A stretch of DNA of 39,266 nt from an uncultured Bdellovibrionales bacterium (GCA_964501755.1 CAZCTF010000001.1:1314-40579); one strand, 5' to 3'. Counted from the stretch's first letter, positions 14,900-31,202 are shown. Notes: generated by a model from the letters alone, not told the origin. Numbers and translations are program-made.

Positions 14900-16990
14900 A
14901 TGTCCCTCGAAGTCGTCTTGGCGGTAGCTGTTTTAATGCTCATTTCCATTGGGACATACTTTGTCGCCGGTCGCTTGAAAGTCCCGTACACGGTGCTCCT
15001 TGTCATCGTCGGTTCTGTCCTTGTTCCGTTATCGAACTTTCCCTTCTTTCATTTCATCAAGAGTTTTCAGTTGACACCAGAGCTCCTCTTTTTCGTCTTT
15101 CTCCCAGTGCTCATCTTCGAGTCGGCCTATAACATGAACATGCGGGAGATGGCCGAGAATATCCGGTCGATCTCATGGCTTTCCGTCGTCAGCCTTATTG
15201 TTTCGGCATTTTTCGTCGCATTCGCACTTTTCTGGGGGCTCAAGCTTATTGGTTTCCCGGTACCGTTCATGGCAACGCTCATTTTTGGTGCCCTCATCTC
15301 GGCGACGGATCCAGTAGCAGTCCTCGCGCTGTTCAAGGAGTTCGGCGTACCACGCCGACTCTCGCTTATTTTCGAAGGAGAGAGTCTTTTCAATGACGGA
15401 ACCTCGCTCGCCCTTTTCTTGATCGTGCTCGAAGTGGCAATCGCTGGCTTTACTGGATTCGGCAGCATCCTCGGTGGATTGTTCATGTTTACCACGATGG
15501 TCTTGGGTGGCGTCGCTTTCGGTCTTTTCATGGGATTTATCTTTTCCAAGATCATCGGAAAAGTGAAAGACAATGAACACATCGAGATCACGCTGACGAT
15601 GCTTGTGGCACATCTCACCTTCATCCTTTCTGAACTCATCTCGCACCATCTTGTCCTCTTCGGACAGGAGATTAAGTTTTCTTCGATCATCGCGACAGTC
15701 ATGGCATCCATGGTGATCGGCAACTACGGCCGTTTCAAGATCTCGCCACGTGTCGAGGAGTATATGGAGAAGTTCTGGGGCTATTTTGCTTTCGTGGCCA
15801 ACTCGCTCGTATTCATCCTGATGGGACTCCTCTTTGCCGACCTCCCAATCCAGTTCAACCATTTCATCCTCCCGATGCTCATTACCGTCGTCGTCGTGCT
15901 CGTCGGGCGCGCCCTCTCGATCTATCCGGTTGTCGCAGCGGTCAATTGGATGAAGAAAGAAAAACCGATTCCGATGAGTTGGCAGCACCTTCTCGCGTGG
16001 GGGAGTCTGCGTGGCGCGCTCGCAGTCACGATGGTGCTCCTCATCCCGGATACGCTCACGCTCCCAGGCTGGAATTATGACTTTACCGTGAAGGAATTCA
16101 TCGCAGCGATCACAATCGGCTGTATTTATTTCACGCTCTGCATCAAAGCGACCTCGATCGGGACGATGATCAAGAAAATGAAATTGTCCGACCTGACCCC
16201 ACTCGAAACAGTAGAGTACCATGAGTGCTCTGCCTTGGTCTATCAGGAAGCGCTCGAGAAACTTGAGGACTTCCATAGCAAGGGGTATGTAAAGAATGAG
16301 ATCTTCGAGCGTTTGAAGCGCGAGTATACGGAGCGCTATGAAGAGTCAGCCGCCTCTTGCAAAGCGCTTTTTGAGGCGACGCCGGCCGATATGGGCCGTG
16401 CGCTCCAGATGTATGCACTCGGCATGGAAAAGCGTTTTCTGAAGGAACTATACGTCTATCAGGAAATATCGGAATCTGAATACAAGGAAATCCTGAATAA
16501 AATTGCTATTCAGACTAATCGTGTCGAAGAAGGGCGGGAGCAGGTGACCGGCCATGCTGAGCGGTTCCAACTCGACTGGTTCGAAACGCTCGTTATGTGG
16601 TTCCGAAAGAAGTTTTACCCAAAGACCCCGAAGCAGGAGCTTCTTGAGGAGTACCGATACTATCGGGCCCAGGAAGTAGTGCTGGCCAAGGTGCTCCGAC
16701 GCCTGAAATTAATTTCAGAGCGCTTCCCCGGGTTGTATGGAGATGATACTTCGATCCAATCGGTTATTGCCATTTATGAGGGGCTCCGGGCCGATGCCGA
16801 GCGGAAGCGTGACGGGGTAGCGGTCAAAATTGGCACCGAACTTGCTTATTTGAATGAGTCTTTCGGTCGGTATGCACTTTTCAAGACCGAGGAACGGATG
16901 CTGGACGAGCTCCTCGAGAATGCGATGCTCCCGCGCAAAGTGGCGAATATGCTCTATAATGAACTGAAAGACGAGGCCTACTCGATCTAG
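14900..16990 (+). CDS. nhaP: CPA1-family (NhaP-type) Na+(K+)/H+ antiporter with large C-terminal cytoplasmic helical domain
   Basis: Multi-TM N-terminal about 430 aa with ISATDPVAVLALFKEFGVP motif; 696 aa in total. Confidence 0.85.
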   Translation: MSLEVVLAVAVLMLISIGTYFVAGRLKVPYTVLLVIVGSVLVPLSNFPFFHFIKSFQLTPELLFFVFLPVLIFESAYNMNMREMAENIRSISWLSVVSLIVSAFFVAFALFWGLKLIGFPVPFMATLIFGALISATDPVAVLALFKEFGVPRRLSLIFEGESLFNDGTSLALFLIVLEVAIAGFTGFGSILGGLFMFTTMVLGGVAFGLFMGFIFSKIIGKVKDNEHIEITLTMLVAHLTFILSELISHHLVLFGQEIKFSSIIATVMASMVIGNYGRFKISPRVEEYMEKFWGYFAFVANSLVFILMGLLFADLPIQFNHFILPMLITVVVVLVGRALSIYPVVAAVNWMKKEKPIPMSWQHLLAWGSLRGALAVTMVLLIPDTLTLPGWNYDFTVKEFIAAITIGCIYFTLCIKATSIGTMIKKMKLSDLTPLETVEYHECSALVYQEALEKLEDFHSKGYVKNEIFERLKREYTERYEESAASCKALFEATPADMGRALQMYALGMEKRFLKELYVYQEISESEYKEILNKIAIQTNRVEEGREQVTGHAERFQLDWFETLVMWFRKKFYPKTPKQELLEEYRYYRAQEVVLAKVLRRLKLISERFPGLYGDDTSIQSVIAIYEGLRADAERKRDGVAVKIGTELAYLNESFGRYALFKTEERMLDELLENAMLPRKVANMLYNELKDEAYSI

Positions 16991-17007
16991 AATCAACCCC
17001 CAATCAT

Positions 17008-17640
17008 ATGGAATTCTTCGGTATCGACATGGTTCAGGCGATTAAAGCGATTGGGTATGTTGGCCTTTTTGCGATTGTCTTTGCGGAAACGGGTCTCTTT
17101 TTGGGTTTTTTCTTCCCAGGAGACAGTCTGCTCTTTGTCGCGGGTGTCTTGGCGGCCCAGGGGTTTTTCTCGCTGCCAATCCTCCTCATGGTCCTTTTTC
17201 TCGCTGCCTTTACCGGCAATATGGTTGGATACTGGTTCGGTGCCTTTGTCGGGCCCAAGATTTTTACTCGCGAAGATTCGCTCCTCTTTCGTAAGTCACA
17301 TATCCTGAAGGCACAGGCATTCTATGAGCGATACGGCGGTAAGACTATCGTCCTTGCACGGTTCGTTCCGATTGTCAGAACCTTTGCACCGATCGTTGCG
17401 GGCGTGGCTCGGATGCACTACGGCACCTTTGCCTTCTTTAACCTAATCGGCGCCTTGCTCTGGTCCGTCGGACTGACCACAGCTGCCTACTATTTAGGGA
17501 CTCTGATCGAGGATATCGACCGCTACCTCCTGCCGATTATCGTGCTCATTATCTTCTTGTCGGTTCTCCCGGGGGTATTCGAATACTGGCGTGACCGGAG
17601 AGAGGCGAAAGCCAGCGGGACTGCGATGGACAAAAGCTGA
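17008..17640 (+). CDS. dedA: DedA/VTT-domain membrane protein
   Basis: FAETGLFLGFFFPGDSLLFVAGVLA and RFVPIVRTFAPIVAG motifs. Confidence 0.85.
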   Translation: MEFFGIDMVQAIKAIGYVGLFAIVFAETGLFLGFFFPGDSLLFVAGVLAAQGFFSLPILLMVLFLAAFTGNMVGYWFGAFVGPKIFTREDSLLFRKSHILKAQAFYERYGGKTIVLARFVPIVRTFAPIVAGVARMHYGTFAFFNLIGALLWSVGLTTAAYYLGTLIEDIDRYLLPIIVLIIFLSVLPGVFEYWRDRREAKASGTAMDKS

Positions 17641-17715: not shown

Positions 17716-18252
17716 ATGTATCGCATGCTGAAGAAAATTCTGACTACGCCACTCGTTGTACGGAGCGAACGAGAAATCCGCGGAACGGAGATTGAAGCGG
17801 TGGGAATAGCGGTCAAGGAGCGAGCGAAGAAGATATTCGGCGGTTCGATTGCGATTCGCGAAGTCGCTGCGGGATCGAGTAATGCCGAAGAGCAAGAGCT
17901 CACGGCGCTCACCAATGCCTACTATGACGTCGAGCGCTTCGGCGTGCATTTCGTCGCTTCGCCGCGGCATGCGGATATGCTCTTTGTCACTGGGCCGGTC
18001 AGTCGCAACATGGCTGACGGTGTCCGTCATTCATATGAGGCGATGCCGACACCAAAATGGGTTGTCGCCGTCGGAGATGGGGCGATCGATGGGGGCATCT
18101 ATCGGGACTCATATGCTGTCTATAATCGAGTCGAGGATCTCGTCCCGGTGGATTTCAAGATCCCAGGCGATCCGCCCTCGCCCATGGCTGTTTTAAAAGC
18201 TTTACTCGAGATTCTCGATGAGATCGACAGTCGGCGTACAGATAGACCATAG
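17716..18252 (+). CDS. NuoB/HycG/HyfI/MbhJ-like small subunit, cysteine-free
   Basis: DVERFGVHFVASPRHADMLFVTGPV and PVDFKIPGDPP fold motifs; cluster-ligand positions read GSSNAEE, GDGAIDGG, PGDPP; zero Cys in 178 aa. Confidence 0.85.
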   Translation: MYRMLKKILTTPLVVRSEREIRGTEIEAVGIAVKERAKKIFGGSIAIREVAAGSSNAEEQELTALTNAYYDVERFGVHFVASPRHADMLFVTGPVSRNMADGVRHSYEAMPTPKWVVAVGDGAIDGGIYRDSYAVYNRVEDLVPVDFKIPGDPPSPMAVLKALLEILDEIDSRRTDRP

Positions 18253-18255
18253 CCT

Positions 18256-20313
18256 ATGGAATTTTTTCTTACTGAAGACGCATTGTTTGCTCTCCTCGCC
18301 TCTTTTTTTATCGGGGCGATTGCGTCGCTCCTCGCTGGAGCACGAATGAATGATGGTGGTCGGATGGCAAACAGAGTCGGCCACGGAGCGGCAGCATCCG
18401 GTTCGCTTGTTGGTCTTGCGATGTCGGCGGTAGTACTCATGAATGGTCGAGGTGTCAGTTTTCAGTTCGAGAGTGCATTCCCACTCTTTGACCTCTCGTT
18501 CCGAATCGATGGCATGGGGGCGTTTTTTCTCGGTCTCGCTTCGCTTATCGCCCTCCTTGCATCGATTTACGGCTATGGGTATCAAAAGCACTTTATTGGA
18601 AGTGGATGTCTCGGGTCATACGGTTTTTTCTATAATCTCTTCGTTGGAAGCCTACTGCTCGTTCCAGTCGCGAATCAAGCGCTTTTCTTCCTCCTCGTCT
18701 GGGAAGTGATGTCACTCGCTTCATACTTCCTTGTTGTTTTTGAACGAGAAAAACCGGAAAATGTCCGGGCGGGTTTCCTCTATTTCCTCATGACACACTT
18801 CGGGACAGCATTTATCATGCTGGCCTGTCTCCTTGCCTATCAGGCGACTGGATCGTTCTCATTTGACGCATGGCGTGAGGCGTTCGGAACACTTTCTTCG
18901 GGCACCGAACTGCTCATCCTCGGCTTTGCGCTTATCGGTTTCGCGACGAAAGCCGGTCTCATCCCGCTCCATATCTGGCTTCCAGAGGCGCACCCGGCGG
19001 CCCCATCCCATGTCTCAGCACTCATGTCTGGCATCATGGTGAAGACAGCACTCTTCATGCTTTTCCGATTCTTCTTCGACTTTTTCCAGGGTGCGCGTAT
19101 TGAGTGGGGTGTCGCGTTCCTTATCATTGGATCAGTTTCCGCAATTCTCGGTATCCTCTATGCCAATGCGGAACGCGATCTGAAGCGCCTCCTCGCGTAC
19201 AGTACCGTCGAAAACGTTGGTATTGTCACGATTGCTTTTGGTGCCGGACTGACACTCTTCGCGCTCGGTCAGGAGCGAGTCGCACTTTTCGCGCTCGCGG
19301 CTGCTCTCTACCATCTCGTGAATCATGCGATCTTCAAGTCTCTTCTCTTCTTTGGTGCTGGCGCAGTGGTCAGTGCTACGGGGACACGGAATATGGAGGC
19401 CTACGGCGGGCTCTGGCGAGTTATGCCGTATACGGCGAGCTTTTTTCTCGTGGGTTCGCTTGCGATCGCTGCGCTACCGCCCTTTAACGGATTCGTGAGC
19501 GAATGGCTAACTTTCCAAGTTCTTTTTGCCGGGGTCATTGGCGCTCCGCTTGCAGTAAAGACGGCATTTCTCTTCGCCCTCGGAGCGCTCGTTTTCACGA
19601 GTGGTCTTACGATCGCTTGTTTTGTGAAAGTATTCGGTACGGCGTTTCTCGCTCGTCCGCGCACTGCCGAGGCTCGGGCAGCACATGAAGTTTCATGGTT
19701 TCTCCTTTCCCCGATGGCACTTCTTTCGGTGATCGCTCTCGGGCTCGGACTGTTTTCGTCCCATGTGCTTGCGGCATTGACGGGAGTTGTGGCGAGCATC
19801 GGTCTTACAAATCCGACGACGCTGCGTTTCCCGTTCCTCGAAATCGTTGCCTCGCGTCATGCCTTTGCGGATGTGTTGCCGCTCGCAACGATCGTCTTAC
19901 TTCTCGTCGCTTTTCTTGCAGCTGTGTTCGTCGGTATCCGGTTGGCCACACGTGGCCGCATCGTGACGATTGCTCCGACCTGGGACTGCGGGTTTCCGCT
20001 TTCCGAACGGAGCGAGATTACAGCGACGAGCTTCTCCCGGTCGCTTGTGACGATTTTCCAGGGGGTGCTCCGCCCGACGAAACAGTCGACAGTCGAATAC
20101 CATGATGAGCGGACCCGGTACTTTGTGAAGGCGGCGAGTATTGAGACTGGTCTTCGTGACGTCTACCGCGAGCGACTGTACCGTCCTGTTGATACGGCAC
20201 TCAGCTTTCTCGCGAACCGTATCCGACTGGTCCAGACTGGGAACGTGAATATGTACATACTCTATTTCGCCGTCGCGCTCGTTGGTACACTCCTCTGGGC
20301 CGCGCGCAGTTGA
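18256..20313 (+). CDS. HyfB/HycC/NuoL-like antiporter-type membrane subunit
   Basis: LVWEVMSLASYFLV, KAGLIPLHIWLPEAHPAAPSHVSALMSG, NHAIFKSLLFFGAG, C-terminal TWDCGFP extension. Confidence 0.85.
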   Translation: MEFFLTEDALFALLASFFIGAIASLLAGARMNDGGRMANRVGHGAAASGSLVGLAMSAVVLMNGRGVSFQFESAFPLFDLSFRIDGMGAFFLGLASLIALLASIYGYGYQKHFIGSGCLGSYGFFYNLFVGSLLLVPVANQALFFLLVWEVMSLASYFLVVFEREKPENVRAGFLYFLMTHFGTAFIMLACLLAYQATGSFSFDAWREAFGTLSSGTELLILGFALIGFATKAGLIPLHIWLPEAHPAAPSHVSALMSGIMVKTALFMLFRFFFDFFQGARIEWGVAFLIIGSVSAILGILYANAERDLKRLLAYSTVENVGIVTIAFGAGLTLFALGQERVALFALAAALYHLVNHAIFKSLLFFGAGAVVSATGTRNMEAYGGLWRVMPYTASFFLVGSLAIAALPPFNGFVSEWLTFQVLFAGVIGAPLAVKTAFLFALGALVFTSGLTIACFVKVFGTAFLARPRTAEARAAHEVSWFLLSPMALLSVIALGLGLFSSHVLAALTGVVASIGLTNPTTLRFPFLEIVASRHAFADVLPLATIVLLLVAFLAAVFVGIRLATRGRIVTIAPTWDCGFPLSERSEITATSFSRSLVTIFQGVLRPTKQSTVEYHDERTRYFVKAASIETGLRDVYRERLYRPVDTALSFLANRIRLVQTGNVNMYILYFAVALVGTLLWAARS

Positions 20314-20319
20314 TCACCT

Positions 20320-21294
20320 ATGACTATGGATATTCTTTTCTTCACCCTCCAAATCATCGCCGTCCCGGTCCTTTCGCCGCTCCTCGTTGGGATTATCCGG
20401 CGCGTGAAAGCGCGTCTCCAGGGACGGGTCGGTGCGGATGTCATTCAGCCGTACCGTGATCTGCGAAAACTTTTTGCTAAGGACGAAGTCATTTCAGCTG
20501 ACGCGTCATGGATTACGCGCTTCGCTCCCTATCTCATATTTTCGATCACGCTGCTTCTCGGTGCGACCGTGCCGCTTGTCACCACAGTGGCGCCGACGAT
20601 CCCGGGCTATCCTGAACTCATGCTCACGGCGACAGGTGATTTCCTTGTGATTGTTTATCTCTTTGCTCTCATGACTTTTTTTCTCGCCCTCGCCGGCATG
20701 GATGCAGGGGGCGGCTTTGGCGGTCTCGGATCGAGTCGCGAGATGATGGTTGCAGCGCTTGCAGAAGCCGGTCTTATCTTTTCGCTTCTCCCGGCATCAT
20801 TCTTGGCGGGGACGGGTCATATCCTCGATATGGTCGTACAATTGAGCAATCTGCCGATCACCACGGCGTTCCCGCTCTTTGTCGCCTTTCTTGCGTTCGC
20901 TATTGCGCTTTTGGCTGAAAATGCCCGGTTTCCGGTGGATAATCCAGCGACACACCTCGAGCTCACTATGATCCATGAGGCGATGCTGCTCGAGTATTCG
21001 GGTAAGCGGCTGGCGCTCATGGAGTGGGCGAGCGCGAATAAACTCATGATTTTCATCGCACTCGGGGCCAACGTCTTCTTCCCGTGGGGGATCGCTTTCG
21101 AATTCTCCTCCTTTCAGACCTTACTCATCCCAGCGCTCATCTTTTCAGTCAAGGCGCTAGCGTTCCTCGTCGGTATCGCGCTCGTCGAATCGCTCATGGC
21201 AAAATTCCGTATCTTCCGTGTCCCAGATCTCCTCTTTACTTCCTTTGTCCTCGGCATGATCGCAGTGGTGCTCACGGTCTTGCTCACTGCCTAA
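20320..21294 (+). CDS. HyfC/HycD/NuoH-like membrane subunit
   Basis: GMDAGGGFGGLGSSREMMVAALAE and HEAMLLEYSGKRLAL motifs typical of HycD/NuoH. Confidence 0.85.
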   Translation: MTMDILFFTLQIIAVPVLSPLLVGIIRRVKARLQGRVGADVIQPYRDLRKLFAKDEVISADASWITRFAPYLIFSITLLLGATVPLVTTVAPTIPGYPELMLTATGDFLVIVYLFALMTFFLALAGMDAGGGFGGLGSSREMMVAALAEAGLIFSLLPASFLAGTGHILDMVVQLSNLPITTAFPLFVAFLAFAIALLAENARFPVDNPATHLELTMIHEAMLLEYSGKRLALMEWASANKLMIFIALGANVFFPWGIAFEFSSFQTLLIPALIFSVKALAFLVGIALVESLMAKFRIFRVPDLLFTSFVLGMIAVVLTVLLTA

Positions 21295-21304
21295 AGTCAT
21301 CGAT

Positions 21305-21964
21305 ATGGAATTCCAATTGCTCCAACTCGCACTCTCGCTCGATCTCGCCGCATTCGTCGCGGTCGTCCTGCTTCATTTGGTGAAGAGTACGAAATACACG
21401 ATCCGTCTGTATGCCCTTCAGTCCGCCGCAGTCGCTATAGTACTTGTGATTCTCGGCGTGACTGAGGACGAGCGGGGATTTATCGCGATCGGTGCCGTTA
21501 CTTTTGTCGCCAAGGTAATTATCGCTCCGTTCTTTTTCTCTCGGCTGGTCCAGCGGTTCGGACATCTGGTGGCGAGCACCAGCTATCTTTCGATGCCGGC
21601 GACATTGGCGGTACTGCTCGGTCTCATCATCTTTTCAGCTTCTTCGGTCTTCGATCCGCTTTGGGCCGTTGCCGCCGTCACTCCTGATGTTTTTGCCTTC
21701 AATGTAGCAATGGTATTCATCGCTCTTTTCCTGCTTATCAATCGGCAGGGTGTGCTTGCCCAGATTATCGCTGTCCTGGCGCTCGAGAATAGTATCGTGC
21801 TCTTTGCGTTATTCATCGGCGTGAAACAGACATTCGCACTCGAGATGGGAATCATGTTCGATGTCATTCTCTGGATGGTCATCGCCTATGCGTTCCTTCA
21901 GATCATCTATCGGCAATTCGGGTCGCTCGATACACGCGAGATGCGCCAATTAACCGAAGACTAA
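21305..21964 (+). CDS. HyfE-like (NuoK-related) membrane subunit
   Basis: Multi-TM protein of 219 aa in the HyfE position, with LALENSIVLFALF motif. Confidence 0.7.
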   Translation: MEFQLLQLALSLDLAAFVAVVLLHLVKSTKYTIRLYALQSAAVAIVLVILGVTEDERGFIAIGAVTFVAKVIIAPFFFSRLVQRFGHLVASTSYLSMPATLAVLLGLIIFSASSVFDPLWAVAAVTPDVFAFNVAMVFIALFLLINRQGVLAQIIAVLALENSIVLFALFIGVKQTFALEMGIMFDVILWMVIAYAFLQIIYRQFGSLDTREMRQLTED

Positions 21965-21975
21965 GGCAAACTCGT

Positions 21976-23430
21976 ATGATCCTCACCCTCGTCCTCGTTC
22001 CGCTCCTGACCGCACTGCTCGTCTTCCTCTTGCCGACCAAGAAGACGCGTTTTATGGAGGCAAGCGTGATCATCGCGGCTGGCATCGAGCTGGCGCTCGT
22101 ATTCCAAGTGATCACCACGGTAGCCCTCGAGGGCACCATCCGTGGGACTGACGCTTTCGCGCTGGATGGTCTCTCAAGTTATATTGTGCTTCTTATCACA
22201 CTGGTCGGTTTTTTCGTCTCGCTGTATTCCGTCGGTTATCTCCGGACGGAAGTAGGGAAGGGGATTATCGGTCCGCGCCGTGTTCGTCAACTTTTCATCC
22301 TCCTCGAGCTCTTCCTCTTTGCGATGTATCTCGCGGTCTCGACAGTAAATCCGATCATCACGTGGATCGCGATCGAAGCGATGACTTTGCCGACAGTCTT
22401 TCTCATCAGTTTCTACAATAAACCGACCGCGACAGAGGCGGCGTGGAAGTATCTTATCCTGAATTCGATCGGTCTCCTCATTGGCCTCCTCGGTACGCTC
22501 CTCTTTGTTGCCCTCCAAGAAGACCACTCGGGCGCCACGAACTGGATAAACCTCATCACTGCCGCCTCAACCGGTCTTATTCCGGCAGAGGTCGCCAAGA
22601 TTGCTTTTGTCCTCATCTTCATCGGCTATGGGGCCAAAGTCGGTCTCGCGCCGCTGCATGCCTGGTTACCGGACGCCCATAGCAAGGCGCCCTCGCCCAT
22701 CTCGGCATTGCTTTCGGGTGTACTTCTGAACGTCGCACTTTTTGCGGTGCTTCGCTGGAAACAGGTGACTGATCTAGCGCTTGGAAGCGATCAATTCACT
22801 GGCAGCCTACTTATTTTCTTCGGAATACTTTCTGTTTTCCTTGCCGCCTTTATCATCTTTGTTCAGAAGAACTACAAGCGCCTCCTGGCATACTCGAGTA
22901 TCGAGCATATGGGACTCATCGCGATCGGCTTCGGGCTTGGCGGCATCGGGACCATCGCTGGCCTCCTTCATATGCTCTACCACGCCCTCGCTAAATCGAT
23001 GCTCTTTCTCTTGGCGGGAAATATCTTCCTCCGCTACAACTCGACGAAGTTGAAGAATGTTAGTGGCCTCATATCGGCGTTGCCGCTCTCGGGCCCGCTC
23101 TTTTTCGCCGGTATCCTCATCCTGTCGGGTCTCCCGCCGTTCGCACTCTTTGCGACGAAGTTGCTTATCCTCTCGGCAGGCATCGTTTTTTCGCCATGGC
23201 TTGTTGGCGGACTGCTCATCGCGCTCGGCGTCATGTTCTTCGGTTTCTTCCGCTTCGTCACCAAGCTCGCCTATGGACCAGTACCGGAGGGCATCGACCG
23301 CGGCGAGGCGCATTTCCTGACACAACTCCCGGTAGCACTCCTCTTCGCGACACTCCTGGTCCTGAGCTGGTATGTGCCCGAATCGCTCAATACAGTCCTT
23401 GCATCCGTGAACGAGACTCTGTCGCACTAA
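21976..23430 (+). CDS. HyfF/NuoN/NuoM-like antiporter-type membrane subunit
   Basis: IAIEAMTLPTVFL, GAKVGLAPLHAWLPDAHSKAPSPISALLSG, YSSIEHMG, YHALAKSMLFLLAG. Confidence 0.85.
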   Translation: MILTLVLVPLLTALLVFLLPTKKTRFMEASVIIAAGIELALVFQVITTVALEGTIRGTDAFALDGLSSYIVLLITLVGFFVSLYSVGYLRTEVGKGIIGPRRVRQLFILLELFLFAMYLAVSTVNPIITWIAIEAMTLPTVFLISFYNKPTATEAAWKYLILNSIGLLIGLLGTLLFVALQEDHSGATNWINLITAASTGLIPAEVAKIAFVLIFIGYGAKVGLAPLHAWLPDAHSKAPSPISALLSGVLLNVALFAVLRWKQVTDLALGSDQFTGSLLIFFGILSVFLAAFIIFVQKNYKRLLAYSSIEHMGLIAIGFGLGGIGTIAGLLHMLYHALAKSMLFLLAGNIFLRYNSTKLKNVSGLISALPLSGPLFFAGILILSGLPPFALFATKLLILSAGIVFSPWLVGGLLIALGVMFFGFFRFVTKLAYGPVPEGIDRGEAHFLTQLPVALLFATLLVLSWYVPESLNTVLASVNETLSH

Positions 23431-23441
23431 AAACCTCTCCT

Positions 23442-25028
23442 ATGATCGATCCTACTCATTTACTCCAGCGTTTCGGACTTAACGGCCTCGTACCAGTGTC
23501 GGAGGGCAGCCGTGTTCTTTTCGAGGTGAAAGCGACCGATCTGTCGCGTGTCATAATGACGTTGAAAAAGACTCACACACTCCCGCTGAAGACGATGGCG
23601 GCAAGCGATGAGCGCGCAGTCGGCCGGGGTTTTCGCATTTACTACGTCTTCGGTATTCCGAAGGAGAATGTGTTCTTGATCCCGTTCCTCTCAGTGAGTC
23701 CGGAGAATCCTTCCTTCCCGTCAATGACACCGGAAGATCAGGAATTTGCCATGTATGAGCGCGAGATACTGACGTTCTTCGGCCTTATGCCGGTCGGCCA
23801 CCCAGCGCCAGAGCGGATCACACTCCATGCTGAAAATTTTCCTAAGGATATCTATCCGCTCCGGAAAGAGTTCAAATGGAATACGGCAATTACTGAACCA
23901 AAGGAAAAGGAATGGGCAACTTTCAAAAAATACGAAGGACAGGGTGTCTATGAGATCCCAGTCGGTCCGGTCCATGCCGGCATTATCGAACCGGGACATT
24001 TCCGTTTCAGTGTTCTCGGTGAAGAGATTCTTCGCTTGGAACCGCGGCTCGGTTATGTCCACAAGGGGACGGAGAAACTTTTTGAGATGCTCGAATCAAA
24101 CCGGCAGGTGATCCTGGCCGAACGTATTTCGGGTGATAGCTCATTCCATCACGCGCTCGCCTACTGCCAGGCGATCGAATCGCTTGCAGGGGCTGAAGTG
24201 CCAAAACGAGCAACATATCTCCGGATGATCATGGCTGAACTGGAACGGCTCGCCAATCACTACAATGATCTCGCGTTTATCATGCTGGACACGGGGCTTT
24301 CCTTTGGCGGCAGTCAGGGGACGCGACTCCGTGAGCGGGTCATGCAGTGGAATGAGTGTCTTACTGGTCACCGATTCTTGCGCGGCATGCTGACACCGGG
24401 CGGCCTTTTAAAAGACATTCCGAACCATGAGTTGAATGCGCTCAAACTTGATCTCGTTGATCTCGAGAATGATTTTCTCGAAGTGATAGATGCGGTCTCG
24501 GAGAGTCTCTCGCTCCTCAATCGGCTCCAGAATACAGGGCGTTTGGAGTGGACAATCGGGGAGGATCATGGCATCGTCGGGATCGGCGCTCGAGCGATTG
24601 GTATCGAACGTGATGCGCGCGCGGATTTTCCGTATGCTGCCTATGACATGGTTCATTTCTCGGTTCCGACAGAGGATGGCGGCGATGTCTATGCCCGGTA
24701 CAGGGTCCGCGAACGCGAAGTCCATCAGTCATTCAAGATCCTCCATCAGTCGATCAATCACATCGTCTCTCTTTCTGGTCCAATCACTCTCCCGCTCGGC
24801 AATCTTGCGCCGAATGCGCACGCGGTCGGCATCGTCGAGGGCTGGCGAGGCGATATCGTCTATTTCGTTTTGACTGATGCGATGGGCGCAATCACTCGTG
24901 TCAAAGTTCGTGATCCATCGTTCCTGAATTGGCAGGTTTTTCCGTATCTTGTGACGAACGACATGGTTCCAGACTTCCCGCTCATCAACAAAAGCCTCAA
25001 TCTTTCCTATTCAGGGAATGATCTCTAG
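23442..25028 (+). CDS. fused NuoC-NuoD / HyfG / HycE-like large subunit lacking NiFe ligands
   Basis: ATG 23442 lies 11 nt after the preceding stop; GPVHAGIIEPGHFRF, RLGYVHKGTEK; the L1 motif reads ERISGDSSFHH and the C-terminus reads SLNLSYSGNDL. Confidence 0.85.
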   Translation: MIDPTHLLQRFGLNGLVPVSEGSRVLFEVKATDLSRVIMTLKKTHTLPLKTMAASDERAVGRGFRIYYVFGIPKENVFLIPFLSVSPENPSFPSMTPEDQEFAMYEREILTFFGLMPVGHPAPERITLHAENFPKDIYPLRKEFKWNTAITEPKEKEWATFKKYEGQGVYEIPVGPVHAGIIEPGHFRFSVLGEEILRLEPRLGYVHKGTEKLFEMLESNRQVILAERISGDSSFHHALAYCQAIESLAGAEVPKRATYLRMIMAELERLANHYNDLAFIMLDTGLSFGGSQGTRLRERVMQWNECLTGHRFLRGMLTPGGLLKDIPNHELNALKLDLVDLENDFLEVIDAVSESLSLLNRLQNTGRLEWTIGEDHGIVGIGARAIGIERDARADFPYAAYDMVHFSVPTEDGGDVYARYRVREREVHQSFKILHQSINHIVSLSGPITLPLGNLAPNAHAVGIVEGWRGDIVYFVLTDAMGAITRVKVRDPSFLNWQVFPYLVTNDMVPDFPLINKSLNLSYSGNDL

Positions 25029-25127
25029 GCCGGGTCTCAGGCTGTACTGCTTGACAGAATCTTTCCTTTCCTCTGGAAAGCGCTAGACTGGAGGCGCCTA
25101 CACTACCCACGAAAGGAGGGTACAGTT

Positions 25128-25370
25128 ATGGCTTTTTCTCAATTGCCGGAGATCGCTTCCAACTTGACTCAAGAGTCACTGGACGAACAGCCCGAGTCGT
25201 CCGTTCCGTCTGCGGGCTCTGACTTCGATCCTTGGGGGCTCTCGGCCCATTTTTCAAGTGCGAGCATCTTCCCTCCCTGGGAAAAGACGGAAGGCCTACT
25301 CCGTTATTGGATGCTGCTCTGGCAGGATCAGTGGGAGCGGCAACTCCGACTCTTTGGAGTTCTACGCTAG
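25128..25370 (+). CDS. small hypothetical protein (80 aa; acidic N-terminal half, Trp-rich C-terminal half)
   Basis: Strong SD AAAGGAGGG 7 nt before the ATG; own terminator at 25397-25431. Confidence 0.55.
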   Translation: MAFSQLPEIASNLTQESLDEQPESSVPSAGSDFDPWGLSAHFSSASIFPPWEKTEGLLRYWMLLWQDQWERQLRLFGVLR

Positions 25371-25396
25371 CCGCAGCCATGGCGCTTGAATGTTCG

Positions 25397-25431
25397 CAGC
25401 ACCAGTCGAAACGATTGGTGCTGAGTTTTTT
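25397..25431 (+). terminator. Rho-independent terminator
   Basis: CAGCACCA-gtcgaaacgat-TGGTGCTG followed by AGTTTTTT. Confidence 0.65.
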
Positions 25432-25477
25432 GAAAGATGTTTGGGTCTGATCTTTGGCGATCGAGACCGCCACGCAA

Positions 25478-25510
25478 CAAAAAACCGCCCCAGAAGGGCG
25501 GTGTTTTTGT
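25478..25510 (-). terminator. terminator of the csp gene (bidirectional shape)
   Basis: ACCGCCC-cagaa-GGGCGGT with an A-run upstream and a T-run downstream; lies 16 nt beyond the csp stop. Confidence 0.7.
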
Positions 25511-25525
25511 TCGTGGAAGAACGCC

Positions 25526-25723
25526 TTAGGCGCGGGTCACATTGACCGCGGCCGGGCCCTTCTCACCGTCGACGACTTCGAAGCTGACGACATCGCCAAC
25601 CTTGAGCTCATCGAACGTCACGCCGGAGAGCTCCTTGGAGTGGAAGAACAGGTCCTTCGTCTCGCCTTCGCGAGCGATGAAACCGAATCCACGATCCGTG
25701 AGCGTCTTGATAGTACCAGTCAT
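25526..25723 (-). CDS. cold-shock domain protein (CspA family)
   Basis: MTGTIKTLTDRGFGFIAREGETKDLFFH ... FEVVDGEKGPAAVNV. Confidence 0.95.
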   Translation of the reverse strand: MTGTIKTLTDRGFGFIAREGETKDLFFHSKELSGVTFDELKVGDVVSFEVVDGEKGPAAVNVTRA

Positions 25724-31089: not shown

Positions 31090-31131
31090 TGCTGGGGAGG
31101 ATGGGATCGAACCACTCTATTCCACTCAAAG
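31090..31131 (-). pseudogene. 3' half of a second, divergent tRNA-Gln-like sequence
   Basis: Minus strand CTTTGA-GTGGAATAGAGTGG-TTCGATC-CCATC-CTCCCCA-G-CA: starts with the same anticodon-loop CTTTGA, has a T-loop, and has an acceptor 3' strand with A72/G73 as in tRNA-Gln; no 5' half. Confidence 0.5.
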
Positions 31132-31202
31132 CTCGGGGACAGGGACTCGAACCCCGATACGCACCTTCAAAGGGTGCTGTCCTACCATTAGACGATCCCC
31201 GA
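31132..31202 (-). tRNA. tRNA-Gln (anticodon UUG)
   Basis: Manual cloverleaf: acceptor TCGGGGA/TCCCCGA (U1-A72), D stem GTCT/GGAC, anticodon stem GCACC/GGTGC with loop CTTTGAA, T stem CGGGG/CCCTG with loop TTCGAGT, discriminator G; CCA not encoded. Confidence 0.9.

What the first reader, a model, noticed from the sequence alone, without database searches (positions are those of the whole stretch)
23442..25028. Large subunit keeps the hydrogenase fold motifs but both NiFe CxxC motifs are replaced
GPVHAGIIEPGHFRF and RLGYVHKGTEK are typical of HycE/HyfG/MbhL/EchE-type large subunits. The N-terminal ligand motif (R-x-C-G-x-C-x3-H) reads ERISGDSSFHH here. The C-terminal motif (D-P-C-x2-C-x2-H/R) reads SLNLSYSGNDL at the very end of the protein. 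Only two Cys occur in 528 aa (AYCQAI and NECLTG), and neither is at a ligand position. NuoD of complex I also lacks these Cys, but there the partner NuoB keeps cluster N2 and a quinone site is used. Here the partner is Cys-free as well.
Basis: partly seen in the sequence, partly recalled or inferred. Interest (0 to 1): 0.7.

Follow-up and report, generated by a model that had tools for sequence, protein, structure and literature searches.

The report
Cofactor-free Ehr complex of CPR bacteria
This gene is the large subunit of an Ehr complex, a known hydrogenase/complex-I relative of unknown function, and here its partner subunit has also lost its iron-sulfur cluster, so a well-conserved complex-I-like membrane machine has no recognisable redox cofactor site.

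Summary
Window 23442-25028 (+) encodes a 528-aa NuoC+NuoD/HycE-like protein. All four NiFe cysteines are replaced (S230, S233, S522, G525). Its NuoB-like partner (17716-18252) has no cysteine.

The large-subunit part is not new. This is EhrL of the Ehr (energy-converting hydrogenase-related) family, and a CPR-specific Ehr clade without the NiFe cysteines was reported by Jaffe et al. 2020.

What I add:
- The replacement motifs (ERISGD..., NKSxNLSYSGNDL-COOH) are an Ehr-wide, nearly invariant signature.
- Most Ehr operons keep the four [4Fe-4S] cysteines in the small subunit. One clade, monophyletic in a neighbour-joining tree, has replaced them with polar or acidic residues (S-E-G-D here). It comprises this Moranbacteria window, many other CPR lineages and a few non-CPR genomes.
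- No NuoI/HycF ferredoxin subunit and no conserved redox partner gene is present.
- The NuoH-like coupling loop and the Lys/Glu/His residues of both antiporter-like subunits stay invariant, and dN/dS is 0.02-0.10.

Best reading: a redox-independent, gradient-driven ion translocator or antiporter built on the complex-I scaffold. This is inferred, not shown. I rate it a new variant of a known kind, of moderate interest.

The parts
17716..18252 (+). ehrS: NuoB/HycG-like small subunit, 178 aa, no Cys. The four [4Fe-4S] (N2-equivalent) ligand positions are S55, E58, G122 and D152.
   Evidence: Pfam Oxidored_q6 at 1.9e-23. Alignment to MbhJ 6cfw_J. Ligand columns tabulated. AlphaFold2 pLDDT 81.7.
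18256..20313 (+). ehrA: HyfB/NuoL-like antiporter-like subunit, 685 aa. Keeps E150, K232, H239, K361 and E416.
   Evidence: Pfam Proton_antipo_M. NCBIfam 'hydrogenase 4 subunit B', 622 bits. Residue conservation.
20320..21294 (+). ehrB: NuoH/HycD-like subunit, 324 aa, with an intact TM5-6 coupling loop PVDNPATHLELTMIHEAMLLEYSG.
   Evidence: Pfam NADHdh. HycD 7z0s_D at 1e-41. The loop is near-invariant across 70 loci.
21305..21964 (+). ehrC: HyfE-like small membrane subunit (NuoK-like C-terminal half), 219 aa.
   Evidence: NCBIfam 'hydrogenase 4 membrane subunit' at 9e-15. Weak Pfam Oxidored_q2 match.
21976..23430 (+). ehrD: HyfF/NuoM/N-like antiporter-like subunit, 484 aa. Keeps E134, K221, H228, H336, K340 and K395.
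   Evidence: Pfam Proton_antipo_M. Alignments to NdhF and MbhH. Residue conservation.
23442..25028 (+). ehrL: fused NuoC+NuoD/HycE-like large subunit, 528 aa. This is the finding.
24120..24152 (+). Former L1 motif, ERISGDSSFHH (residues 227-237): S230 and S233 replace the Cys, and D232 is nearly Ehr-invariant.
24987..25025 (+). Former L2 motif and C-terminus, NKSLNLSYSGNDL (residues 516-528): S522 and G525 replace the Cys.
14900..17640 (+). Upstream neighbours: an NhaP/CPA1-type Na+/H+ exchanger (14900-16990) and a DedA/VTT protein (17008-17640). They are syntenic with the operon in Moranbacteria only.
   Evidence: Pfam matches. Same layout in L081, L084 and L085. Absent from L082 and from the other cluster-less loci.

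Best explanation
The six genes ehrS-A-B-C-D-L (17716-25028) encode a complete Ehr complex of the complex-I / group-4-hydrogenase superfamily. It has lost every canonical redox cofactor site. There are no NiFe ligands in EhrL, no [4Fe-4S] ligands in EhrS, and no NuoI/HycF-type ferredoxin subunit.

The membrane ion-translocation residues and the NuoH-type coupling loop are fully preserved and under strong purifying selection. I therefore propose that the complex works without electron transfer, as a gradient-driven cation/proton translocator in the manner of an Mrp antiporter. In this reading the NuoB/C/D-like cap is retained as a structural and gating module on the NuoH-like subunit. Polar or acidic residues (S/E/G/D in EhrS; S-G-D-S-S, S-Y-S-G-N-D-L-COOH and D283 in EhrL) fill the former cofactor pockets, perhaps as a hydrated proton- or cation-binding site.

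Shown here: the anatomy, the losses, the conservation and the clade structure. Inferred: the transport function, its direction and its ion specificity.
For: - Subunit identities come from Pfam, NCBIfam and PDB matches.
- Ligand losses were verified by alignment to HycE and MbhJ.
- No CxxCxxCxxxC motif occurs in any frame of the 39-kb window.
- A 3.08-Mb non-CPR contig carries the same six genes alone between housekeeping genes. Among the cluster-less loci, only L007 has a 2x[4Fe-4S]-like ORF within 10 kb.
- The loss is specific to one clade. About 65 of 78 Ehr/Hyf small subunits read C-C-C-C. The window plus L001, L003-L005, L007, L008, L010, L061, L062 and L074 read SEGD, TEGD or [DT]C[DG][DN]. 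They form one clade in a neighbour-joining tree.
- Of 121 small subunits (the window's plus its 120 closest relatives), 114 read SEGD, 6 NEGD and 1 NESD, and 111 have no Cys at all.
- The machinery is intact. The NuoH-like loop P[VF]DNPxTHLELTM[IV]HEAMxLEYSG is the same in cluster-less Ehr, cluster-containing Ehr and the sister true hydrogenases. The TM5 Glu, TM7 Lys, TM8 Lys/His and TM12 Lys/Glu of both antiporter-like subunits are invariant.
- dN/dS is 0.02-0.10 for all six genes, similar to the flanking NhaP and DedA genes.
- No EhrL position distinguishes cluster-less from cluster-containing Ehr. Whatever the EhrL site does is therefore kept without an electron supply.
- In Moranbacteria the operon sits directly after an NhaP Na+/H+ exchanger and a DedA gene.
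Against: - There is no experimental data for any Ehr complex, and papers up to 2023 call its function unknown (PMC10284858, PMC10432482).
- Mrp antiporters work without NuoH/B/C/D-like subunits, so keeping a costly cap needs an explanation that I can only guess at.
- The strict conservation of the EhrL site (S230, D232, D283, S522, Y523, G525, D527) would also fit a catalytic or ligand-binding role.
- NhaP/DedA synteny is limited to Moranbacteria.
- The acidic replacements in EhrS (often D, C, D, D) could bind a metal ion, so the complex may not be strictly cofactor-free.
- The tree is only neighbour-joining.
- I could not read Marreiros et al. 2013. Four of my ten literature searches failed with time-outs, so an earlier description of cluster-less EhrS may exist.
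Confidence: 0.45

Rival explanations
1. The EhrL pocket is a non-redox catalytic or ligand-binding site, formed by S230, D232, S233, H237, D283, S522, Y523, D527, the C-terminal carboxylate and E183. Its chemistry or binding is conformationally coupled to ion translocation. That would make the complex a chemically driven pump, or a gradient-driven enzyme comparable in logic to the CupA/NDH-1 CO2-hydration modules.
For: The replacement residues are not random filler. S230, S522 and G525 are 73-76 of 76 conserved across all Ehr, and D283 is conserved in 69 of 76, against C, C, C and G in the sister hydrogenases. The C-terminus ...NLSY[ST]GNDL is invariant up to the stop codon. The site is unchanged in the clade that lost the cluster, so it does not depend on electrons. 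D283 aligns with Nqo4 D139, the coupling Asp of complex I.
Against: No candidate substrate is known, and no conserved neighbouring gene points to a pathway. AlphaFold2 gives low confidence exactly for residues 162-207 and 522-528, so no pocket geometry could be assessed.
Confidence: 0.2
2. The complex is still a redox enzyme. It would use a non-cysteine-ligated metal centre at the acidic EhrS site (D/E/S ligands, one Cys in many relatives), or a loosely bound organic cofactor, and would receive electrons from a soluble partner encoded elsewhere.
For: The EhrS replacements are strongly biased towards carboxylates and hydroxyls (SEGD, DCDD, DVDD, DIDD, DEDS and others), which resembles a hard-metal site. 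Published models assume Ehr couples a cytoplasmic redox reaction to ion translocation (PMC6349859).
Against: No known electron-transfer centre uses such ligands in this fold. There is no NuoI/HycF subunit and no ferredoxin motif in the window. The quinone-site Tyr and His are absent. No partner gene is conserved nearby.
Confidence: 0.12
3. The complex is a decaying relic, or only a structural membrane scaffold, with no transport or catalytic activity.
For: CPR genomes are reductive. One complete Moranbacteria genome has the HyfF-like gene split in two.
Against: dN/dS is 0.02-0.10 for all six genes. Functional Lys/Glu/His residues and the coupling loop are invariant. More than a hundred 90%-identity clusters across many CPR phyla have intact full-length genes.
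Confidence: 0.05

Closest known systems
[quoted passage not shown] 2013 to my knowledge; as discussed in PMC6349859, PMC7304191, PMC10284858)
   Same: The same six subunit types are present: HyfB-like, NuoH-like, HyfE-like, HyfF-like, a fused NuoC-NuoD large subunit and a NuoB-like small subunit. The large subunit lacks the NiFe cysteines and carries the same SGD / NKSxNxSYSGxD signature. The window falls inside the Ehr clade. A CPR-specific Ehr clade is already published (PMC7304191).
   Different: The small subunit has lost all four [4Fe-4S] ligands, whereas about 65 of 78 surveyed Ehr/Hyf loci keep C-C-C-C. Gene order is S-A-B-C-D-L rather than A-B-C-D-L-S. There is no NuoI-like fusion on the small subunit.
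Hyf/Hyc-type group 4 [NiFe]-hydrogenases (E. coli FHL, PDB 7Z0S)
   Same: HycE is the best sequence and structure match (E=3e-68; TM 0.90). HycD is the best match for the NuoH-like subunit. The membrane subunit set is HyfB/C/E/F-like. The GPxHAGIIEPGHFRF and NKSF..Y..D motifs are shared with the sister true hydrogenases.
   Different: There are no NiFe ligands, no proximal cluster, no HycF/HyfH ferredoxin, no formate dehydrogenase partner, and no C-terminal extension for protease maturation.
Respiratory complex I Q-module and membrane arm (NuoB, C, D, H, L/M/N; T. thermophilus 4HEA)
   Same: The fold and architecture are shared. NuoD likewise lacks the NiFe cysteines. D283 aligns with Nqo4 D139. 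The antiporter-like Lys/Glu pattern and the NuoH loop are conserved.
   Different: There is no cluster N2. The quinone-site Tyr87 and His38 are G231 and I182. NuoI, E, F, G, A and J are absent.
Mrp-type multisubunit cation/proton antiporters
   Same: Both are cofactor-free and gradient-driven. Both contain two NuoL/M/N-type antiporter-like subunits plus a NuoK-like small subunit. This is the closest analogue for how the complex may work.
   Different: Mrp has no NuoH-like subunit and no NuoB/C/D-like cytoplasmic cap. The window has no MrpB/E/F/G homologues.

Membership tests
Ehr complex | Operon with HyfB-like, NuoH-like, HyfE-like, HyfF-like, NuoC-NuoD-fused and NuoB-like subunits | tested here: met
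   Pfam and NCBIfam matches. The composition matches that described in Supplementary Note 4 of PMC6349859.
Ehr complex | [quoted passage not shown] | tested here: met
   Alignment to HycE gives S230, S233, S522 and G525 at the four ligand positions. The same is seen in 76 Ehr sequences.
Ehr complex | Phylogenetic placement with other Ehr large subunits, apart from true hydrogenases and NuoD | tested here: met
   Neighbour-joining tree of 84 sequences. This agrees with the maximum-likelihood tree described in PMC7304191. No maximum-likelihood tree was run here.
Ehr complex | Small subunit carrying the proximal [4Fe-4S] cluster (typical of the family; whether it is defining is unclear) | tested here: not met
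   S55, E58, G122 and D152 replace the four Cys. Most other Ehr loci read C-C-C-C.
Group 4 [NiFe]-hydrogenase | RxCGxCxxxH and DPCxxCxxH/R NiFe-binding motifs | tested here: not met
Group 4 [NiFe]-hydrogenase | Small subunit with a [4Fe-4S] cluster, plus a 2x[4Fe-4S] ferredoxin-like subunit | tested here: not met
   No ferredoxin motif in the window.
Complex I NuoD/NuoB (quinone module) | Quinone-site Tyr87 and His38 (T. thermophilus Nqo4 numbering) | tested here: not met
   The ungapped phmmer alignment to 2fug_4 gives G231 and I182. D139 is matched by D283.
Complex I NuoD/NuoB (quinone module) | Cluster N2 ligated by NuoB cysteines | tested here: not met
   EhrS has zero Cys.
Complex I NuoD/NuoB (quinone module) | Quinone biosynthesis genes elsewhere in the genome | not testable with these tools
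   Only a 39-kb window was available. No such genes are present in it.
Mrp antiporter | MrpA/MrpD-type antiporter-like subunits with conserved TM5 Glu, TM7 Lys, TM8 Lys/His and TM12 Lys/Glu | tested here: met
Mrp antiporter | Seven-subunit MrpA-G set without NuoH/B/C/D homologues | tested here: not met
   NuoH-, NuoB- and NuoCD-like subunits are present, and MrpB/E/F/G are absent.
Mrp antiporter | Cation/H+ antiport activity | not testable with these tools
   This needs a transport assay.

The most novel reading that the evidence does not exclude
The cluster-less clade acts as a natural knock-out. It would show that the conserved EhrL site and the whole complex-I-type coupling machinery can function without any electron transfer. 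On this reading Ehr complexes in general are not oxidoreductases. They would be a distinct class of capped, Mrp-like ion translocators or ligand-coupled pumps, in which the [4Fe-4S] cluster of other lineages is only structural or regulatory. The polar pockets that replaced NiFe and N2 would be the ion- or ligand-sensing trigger.
Probability: 0.3. Interest if true: 0.8.

Novelty: new variant of a known kind. Interest (0 to 1): 0.5.

Why it matters
Complex I, the membrane-bound hydrogenases and Mbx/Mbs all drive ion pumping with redox chemistry at the NuoB-NuoD-NuoH junction. How that chemistry is turned into long-range conformational or electrostatic coupling is still debated.

An abundant, strongly conserved family member keeps the junction, the coupling loop and the pump residues but has no cofactor site. 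That makes it a minimal system for asking what the cap does apart from chemistry.

It also constrains the unknown function of Ehr complexes, which occur in Nitrospira, ammonia-oxidising archaea, Rokubacteria, Acidobacteria and others.

For CPR bacteria, which lack respiratory chains, it may be a major and so far unrecognised element of ion or pH homeostasis.

Tried and rejected
**Hypotheses tested and rejected**
- True hydrogenase after realignment: rejected. The HycE alignment is unambiguous.
- Bona fide NuoD: rejected. Tyr87 and His38 are absent, there is no N2, and the protein groups with Ehr/Hyf rather than NuoD.
- Pseudogene or assembly error: rejected by conservation and dN/dS.
- Hidden ferredoxin-type subunit or small ORF: none. 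The operon genes are 3-11 nt apart, and no CxxCxxCxxxC occurs in any frame.
- Conserved redox partner in the neighbourhood: none found in L081, L082, L084, L085 or the cluster-less loci.
- EhrL residues specific to the cluster-less clade: none found.

**Checks that added little**
- Pocket analysis from the AlphaFold2 model was not possible. The beta1-beta2 region (162-207) and the C-terminus (522-528) have pLDDT below 50 in the monomer model, and coordinates cannot be exported.
- Rfam and tRNA scans of the window found only tRNA-Gln at 31131-31202.

**Literature limits**
- Marreiros et al. 2013 is not held.
- Four of my ten searches and several paper look-ups failed with time-outs.
- I therefore could not verify whether cluster-less EhrS has been described before.

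Full report
**1. Observation**

Window 23442-25028 (+) translates to a 528-aa protein with two cysteines. Pfam finds Complex1_30kDa at residues 28-147 and Complex1_49kDa, plus a sub-threshold NiFeSe_Hases match at 209-273. The best NCBIfam matches are NuoD, NuoCD and FpoD models, all far below their cut-offs.

Against solved structures, the best match is E. coli HycE (7z0s_E, E=3e-68), followed by T. thermophilus Nqo4, MbhL and MbsL.

- In the HycE alignment, L1 'RVCGIC' corresponds to R228-I-S230-G-D232-S233.
- L2 'DPCYSC' corresponds to N520-L-S522-Y-S-G525.
- The protein stops at L528, the position of the mature HycE C-terminus.
- Against Nqo4, Tyr87 corresponds to G231 and His38 to I182. 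Nqo4 D139 corresponds to D283.

The AlphaFold2 model has pLDDT 85.2 and pTM 0.88. Its best Foldseek match is HycE with TM 0.90. The fold is therefore retained. Residues 162-207 and 522-528 are poorly defined in the monomer model.

**2. The operon**

Six tightly spaced genes on the + strand form the unit:

| Gene | Coordinates | Product |
|---|---|---|
| ehrS | 17716-18252 | NuoB-like |
| ehrA | 18256-20313 | HyfB/NuoL-like |
| ehrB | 20320-21294 | NuoH/HycD-like |
| ehrC | 21305-21964 | HyfE-like |
| ehrD | 21976-23430 | HyfF-like |
| ehrL | 23442-25028 | NuoCD/HycE-like |

EhrS has no cysteine. Against MbhJ, the four [4Fe-4S] ligands align with S55, E58, G122 and D152. Its fold is predicted with pLDDT 81.7.

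There is no NuoI/HycF gene. No CxxCxxCxxxC motif occurs in any of the six frames of the 39-kb window.

The rest of the window is housekeeping: DnaE, RNase HII, NusB, RNase III, SMC, L10, L7/L12 and DnaX. Directly upstream lie an NhaP-type Na+/H+ exchanger and a DedA protein.

**3. Organism and family**

The closest homologues are named Candidatus Moraniibacteriota or Moranbacteria. More distant ones come from Howlettbacteria, Wildermuthbacteria and unclassified Patescibacteria.

A scan of species-representative genomes with the peptides HAGIIEPG and PDFPLINK found at least 591 loci. They come from CPR, Rokubacteria, Nitrospira, Acidobacteria, Verrucomicrobia, Firmicutes, Chloroflexi, Thaumarchaeota, Methanomassiliicoccus and others.

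In the 80 loci kept, all large subunits without NiFe cysteines share two motifs:
- E[RKS][IV]SGDxxxx[HN]
- the C-terminus NKS[FL][ND][LQ]SY[SA]G[NT]D[LRM]

Seven sister loci are true hydrogenases, with ERICG[AV]C..SH and NKSFELCY[SA]C.DR.

Positions that separate the two groups are K208, S230, D283, P492, S522 and G525.

This is the Ehr family. The literature describes it as related to group 4 hydrogenases, lacking the CxxC motifs, and of unknown function (PMC6349859, PMC10284858, PMC10432482). The subunit composition matches this operon (Supplementary Note 4 of PMC6349859).

Jaffe et al. 2020 already reported that CPR sequences form a monophyletic Ehr subclade lacking the metal-binding cysteines and 'likely cannot interact with H2' (PMC7304191). 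The headline of the finding is therefore already known.

**4. What appears new**

I tabulated the four cluster-ligand columns of the NuoB-like subunit in all loci.

- About 65 of 78 read C-C-C-C. These include all Nitrospira, Rokubacteria, Acidobacteria, Firmicutes and archaeal Ehr.
- The window and loci L001, L003-L005, L007, L008, L010, L061, L062 and L074 read SEGD, TEGD or [DT]-C-[DG]-[DN].
- These cluster-less loci form a single clade in a neighbour-joining tree of the large subunits.
- They all have the small-subunit gene first in the operon.
- Their sources are Daviesbacteria, Saccharibacteria, Magasanikbacteria and other Patescibacteria, plus a few MAGs labelled Firestonebacteria, Endomicrobiales, Thermoleophilia and Bdellovibrionales. 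L002, L006 (Fibrobacteria) and L009 (Falkowbacteria) also fall in this clade, but no small subunit was recovered for them.

Of 121 small subunits (the window's plus its 120 closest relatives), 114 read SEGD, 6 NEGD and 1 NESD, and 111 have no cysteine.

I also searched 1.84 billion representative proteins. Among the best 150 hits:
- 94 keep C-C-C-C.
- Roughly 25-30 are cluster-less, with replacements biased towards Asp, Glu, Ser and Asn (DAAD, DADN, DSSD, DVDD, DIDD, DDDS, DEDS and others).

None of the six papers I could read mentions loss of the small-subunit cluster.

**5. Evidence of function**

- dN/dS against two close relatives (L084, L085) is 0.02-0.10 for all six genes. This is comparable to the adjacent NhaP and DedA genes.
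- The NuoH-like TM5-6 loop, P[VF]DNPxTHLELTM[IV]HEAMxLEYSG, is essentially identical in cluster-less Ehr, cluster-containing Ehr and the sister hydrogenases.
- In EhrD, E134, K221, H228, H336 and K340 are invariant, and position 395 is Lys or Glu. In EhrA, E150, K232, H239, K361 and E416 are invariant.
- No EhrL position distinguishes cluster-less from cluster-containing Ehr.
- Synteny with NhaP and DedA holds in Moranbacteria (L081 from the complete genome CP064975.1, L084, L085). It does not hold elsewhere.
- A 3.08-Mb non-CPR contig carries the bare six-gene operon between ribosomal and other housekeeping genes.

**6. Interpretation**

The complex cannot be a hydrogenase, a quinone reductase, or any enzyme that passes electrons through the NuoB cluster. 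It nevertheless keeps the complete coupling and ion-translocation apparatus under strong constraint.

The most economical mechanism is a redox-independent, gradient-driven cation/proton translocator that works like Mrp. In this model the cap is retained as a structural or gating element, and polar or acidic residues fill the former cofactor pockets (confidence about 0.45).

The rivals are:
- a non-redox catalytic or ligand-binding EhrL site coupled to ion flow (0.2)
- a cryptic non-cysteine metal or organic cofactor that preserves redox function (0.12)
- a relic (0.05)

All functional statements are inferences. The anatomy, the losses, the clade structure and the selection are shown.

**7. Verdict**

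The large-subunit feature is the known Ehr signature and is already published for CPR. The coupled loss of the small-subunit cluster in a defined, widespread clade gives an apparently cofactor-free complex-I-like machine. I rate that as a new variant of a known kind, with moderate interest (0.5).

Noticed in passing
L079 8657-12337 (Chloroflexota MAG JALYXG010000207.1); also protein P0280: The large subunit keeps the true NiFe cysteines (ERICGACALSH / NKSFELCYACLDR). The adjacent NuoB-like subunit reads E-C-E-D at the four [4Fe-4S] positions. This looks like a hydrogenase large subunit paired with a cluster-less small subunit.
   Followed up: no
window 24288-24290 (EhrL D283): D283 aligns with Nqo4 D139, the quinone-site and coupling Asp of complex I. 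It is conserved in 69 of 76 Ehr large subunits but is Gly in the sister true hydrogenases. This is a complex-I-like trait in Ehr.
   Followed up: partly
L038, L073 (Nitrospirota) and L006 (Fibrobacteria): Two Ehr operons lie in tandem on the same strand. In the Nitrospirota the two large subunits have different L1 variants (ERVSGTSSFAH versus [GS]RVSGDTTVAH).
   Followed up: no
L081 8548-9995 (Moranbacteria complete genome CP064975.1): The HyfF-like gene is split into two ORFs (312 + 173 aa) in an otherwise syntenic operon. This could be a frameshift, a sequencing error or incipient decay.
   Followed up: no
window 25029-25525: About 500 nt downstream of ehrL have no convincing gene. Close relatives (L084, L085) carry an 84-85 aa ORF and a DUF305/DUF4142 gene there. 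The window keeps a cold-shock protein gene (25526-25723, minus strand), a hairpin terminator at 25397-25423 and a bidirectional one at 25484-25502.
   Followed up: partly
window 14900-16990: The NhaP/CPA1 Na+/H+ exchanger (696 aa) has a C-terminal cytoplasmic extension of about 270 aa with no Pfam match. It is syntenic with the ehr operon in all Moranbacteria relatives examined.
   Followed up: no
window 31131-31202 (minus strand): tRNA-Gln (anticodon TTG) is the only RNA gene found by Rfam and ARAGORN in the window.
   Followed up: yes
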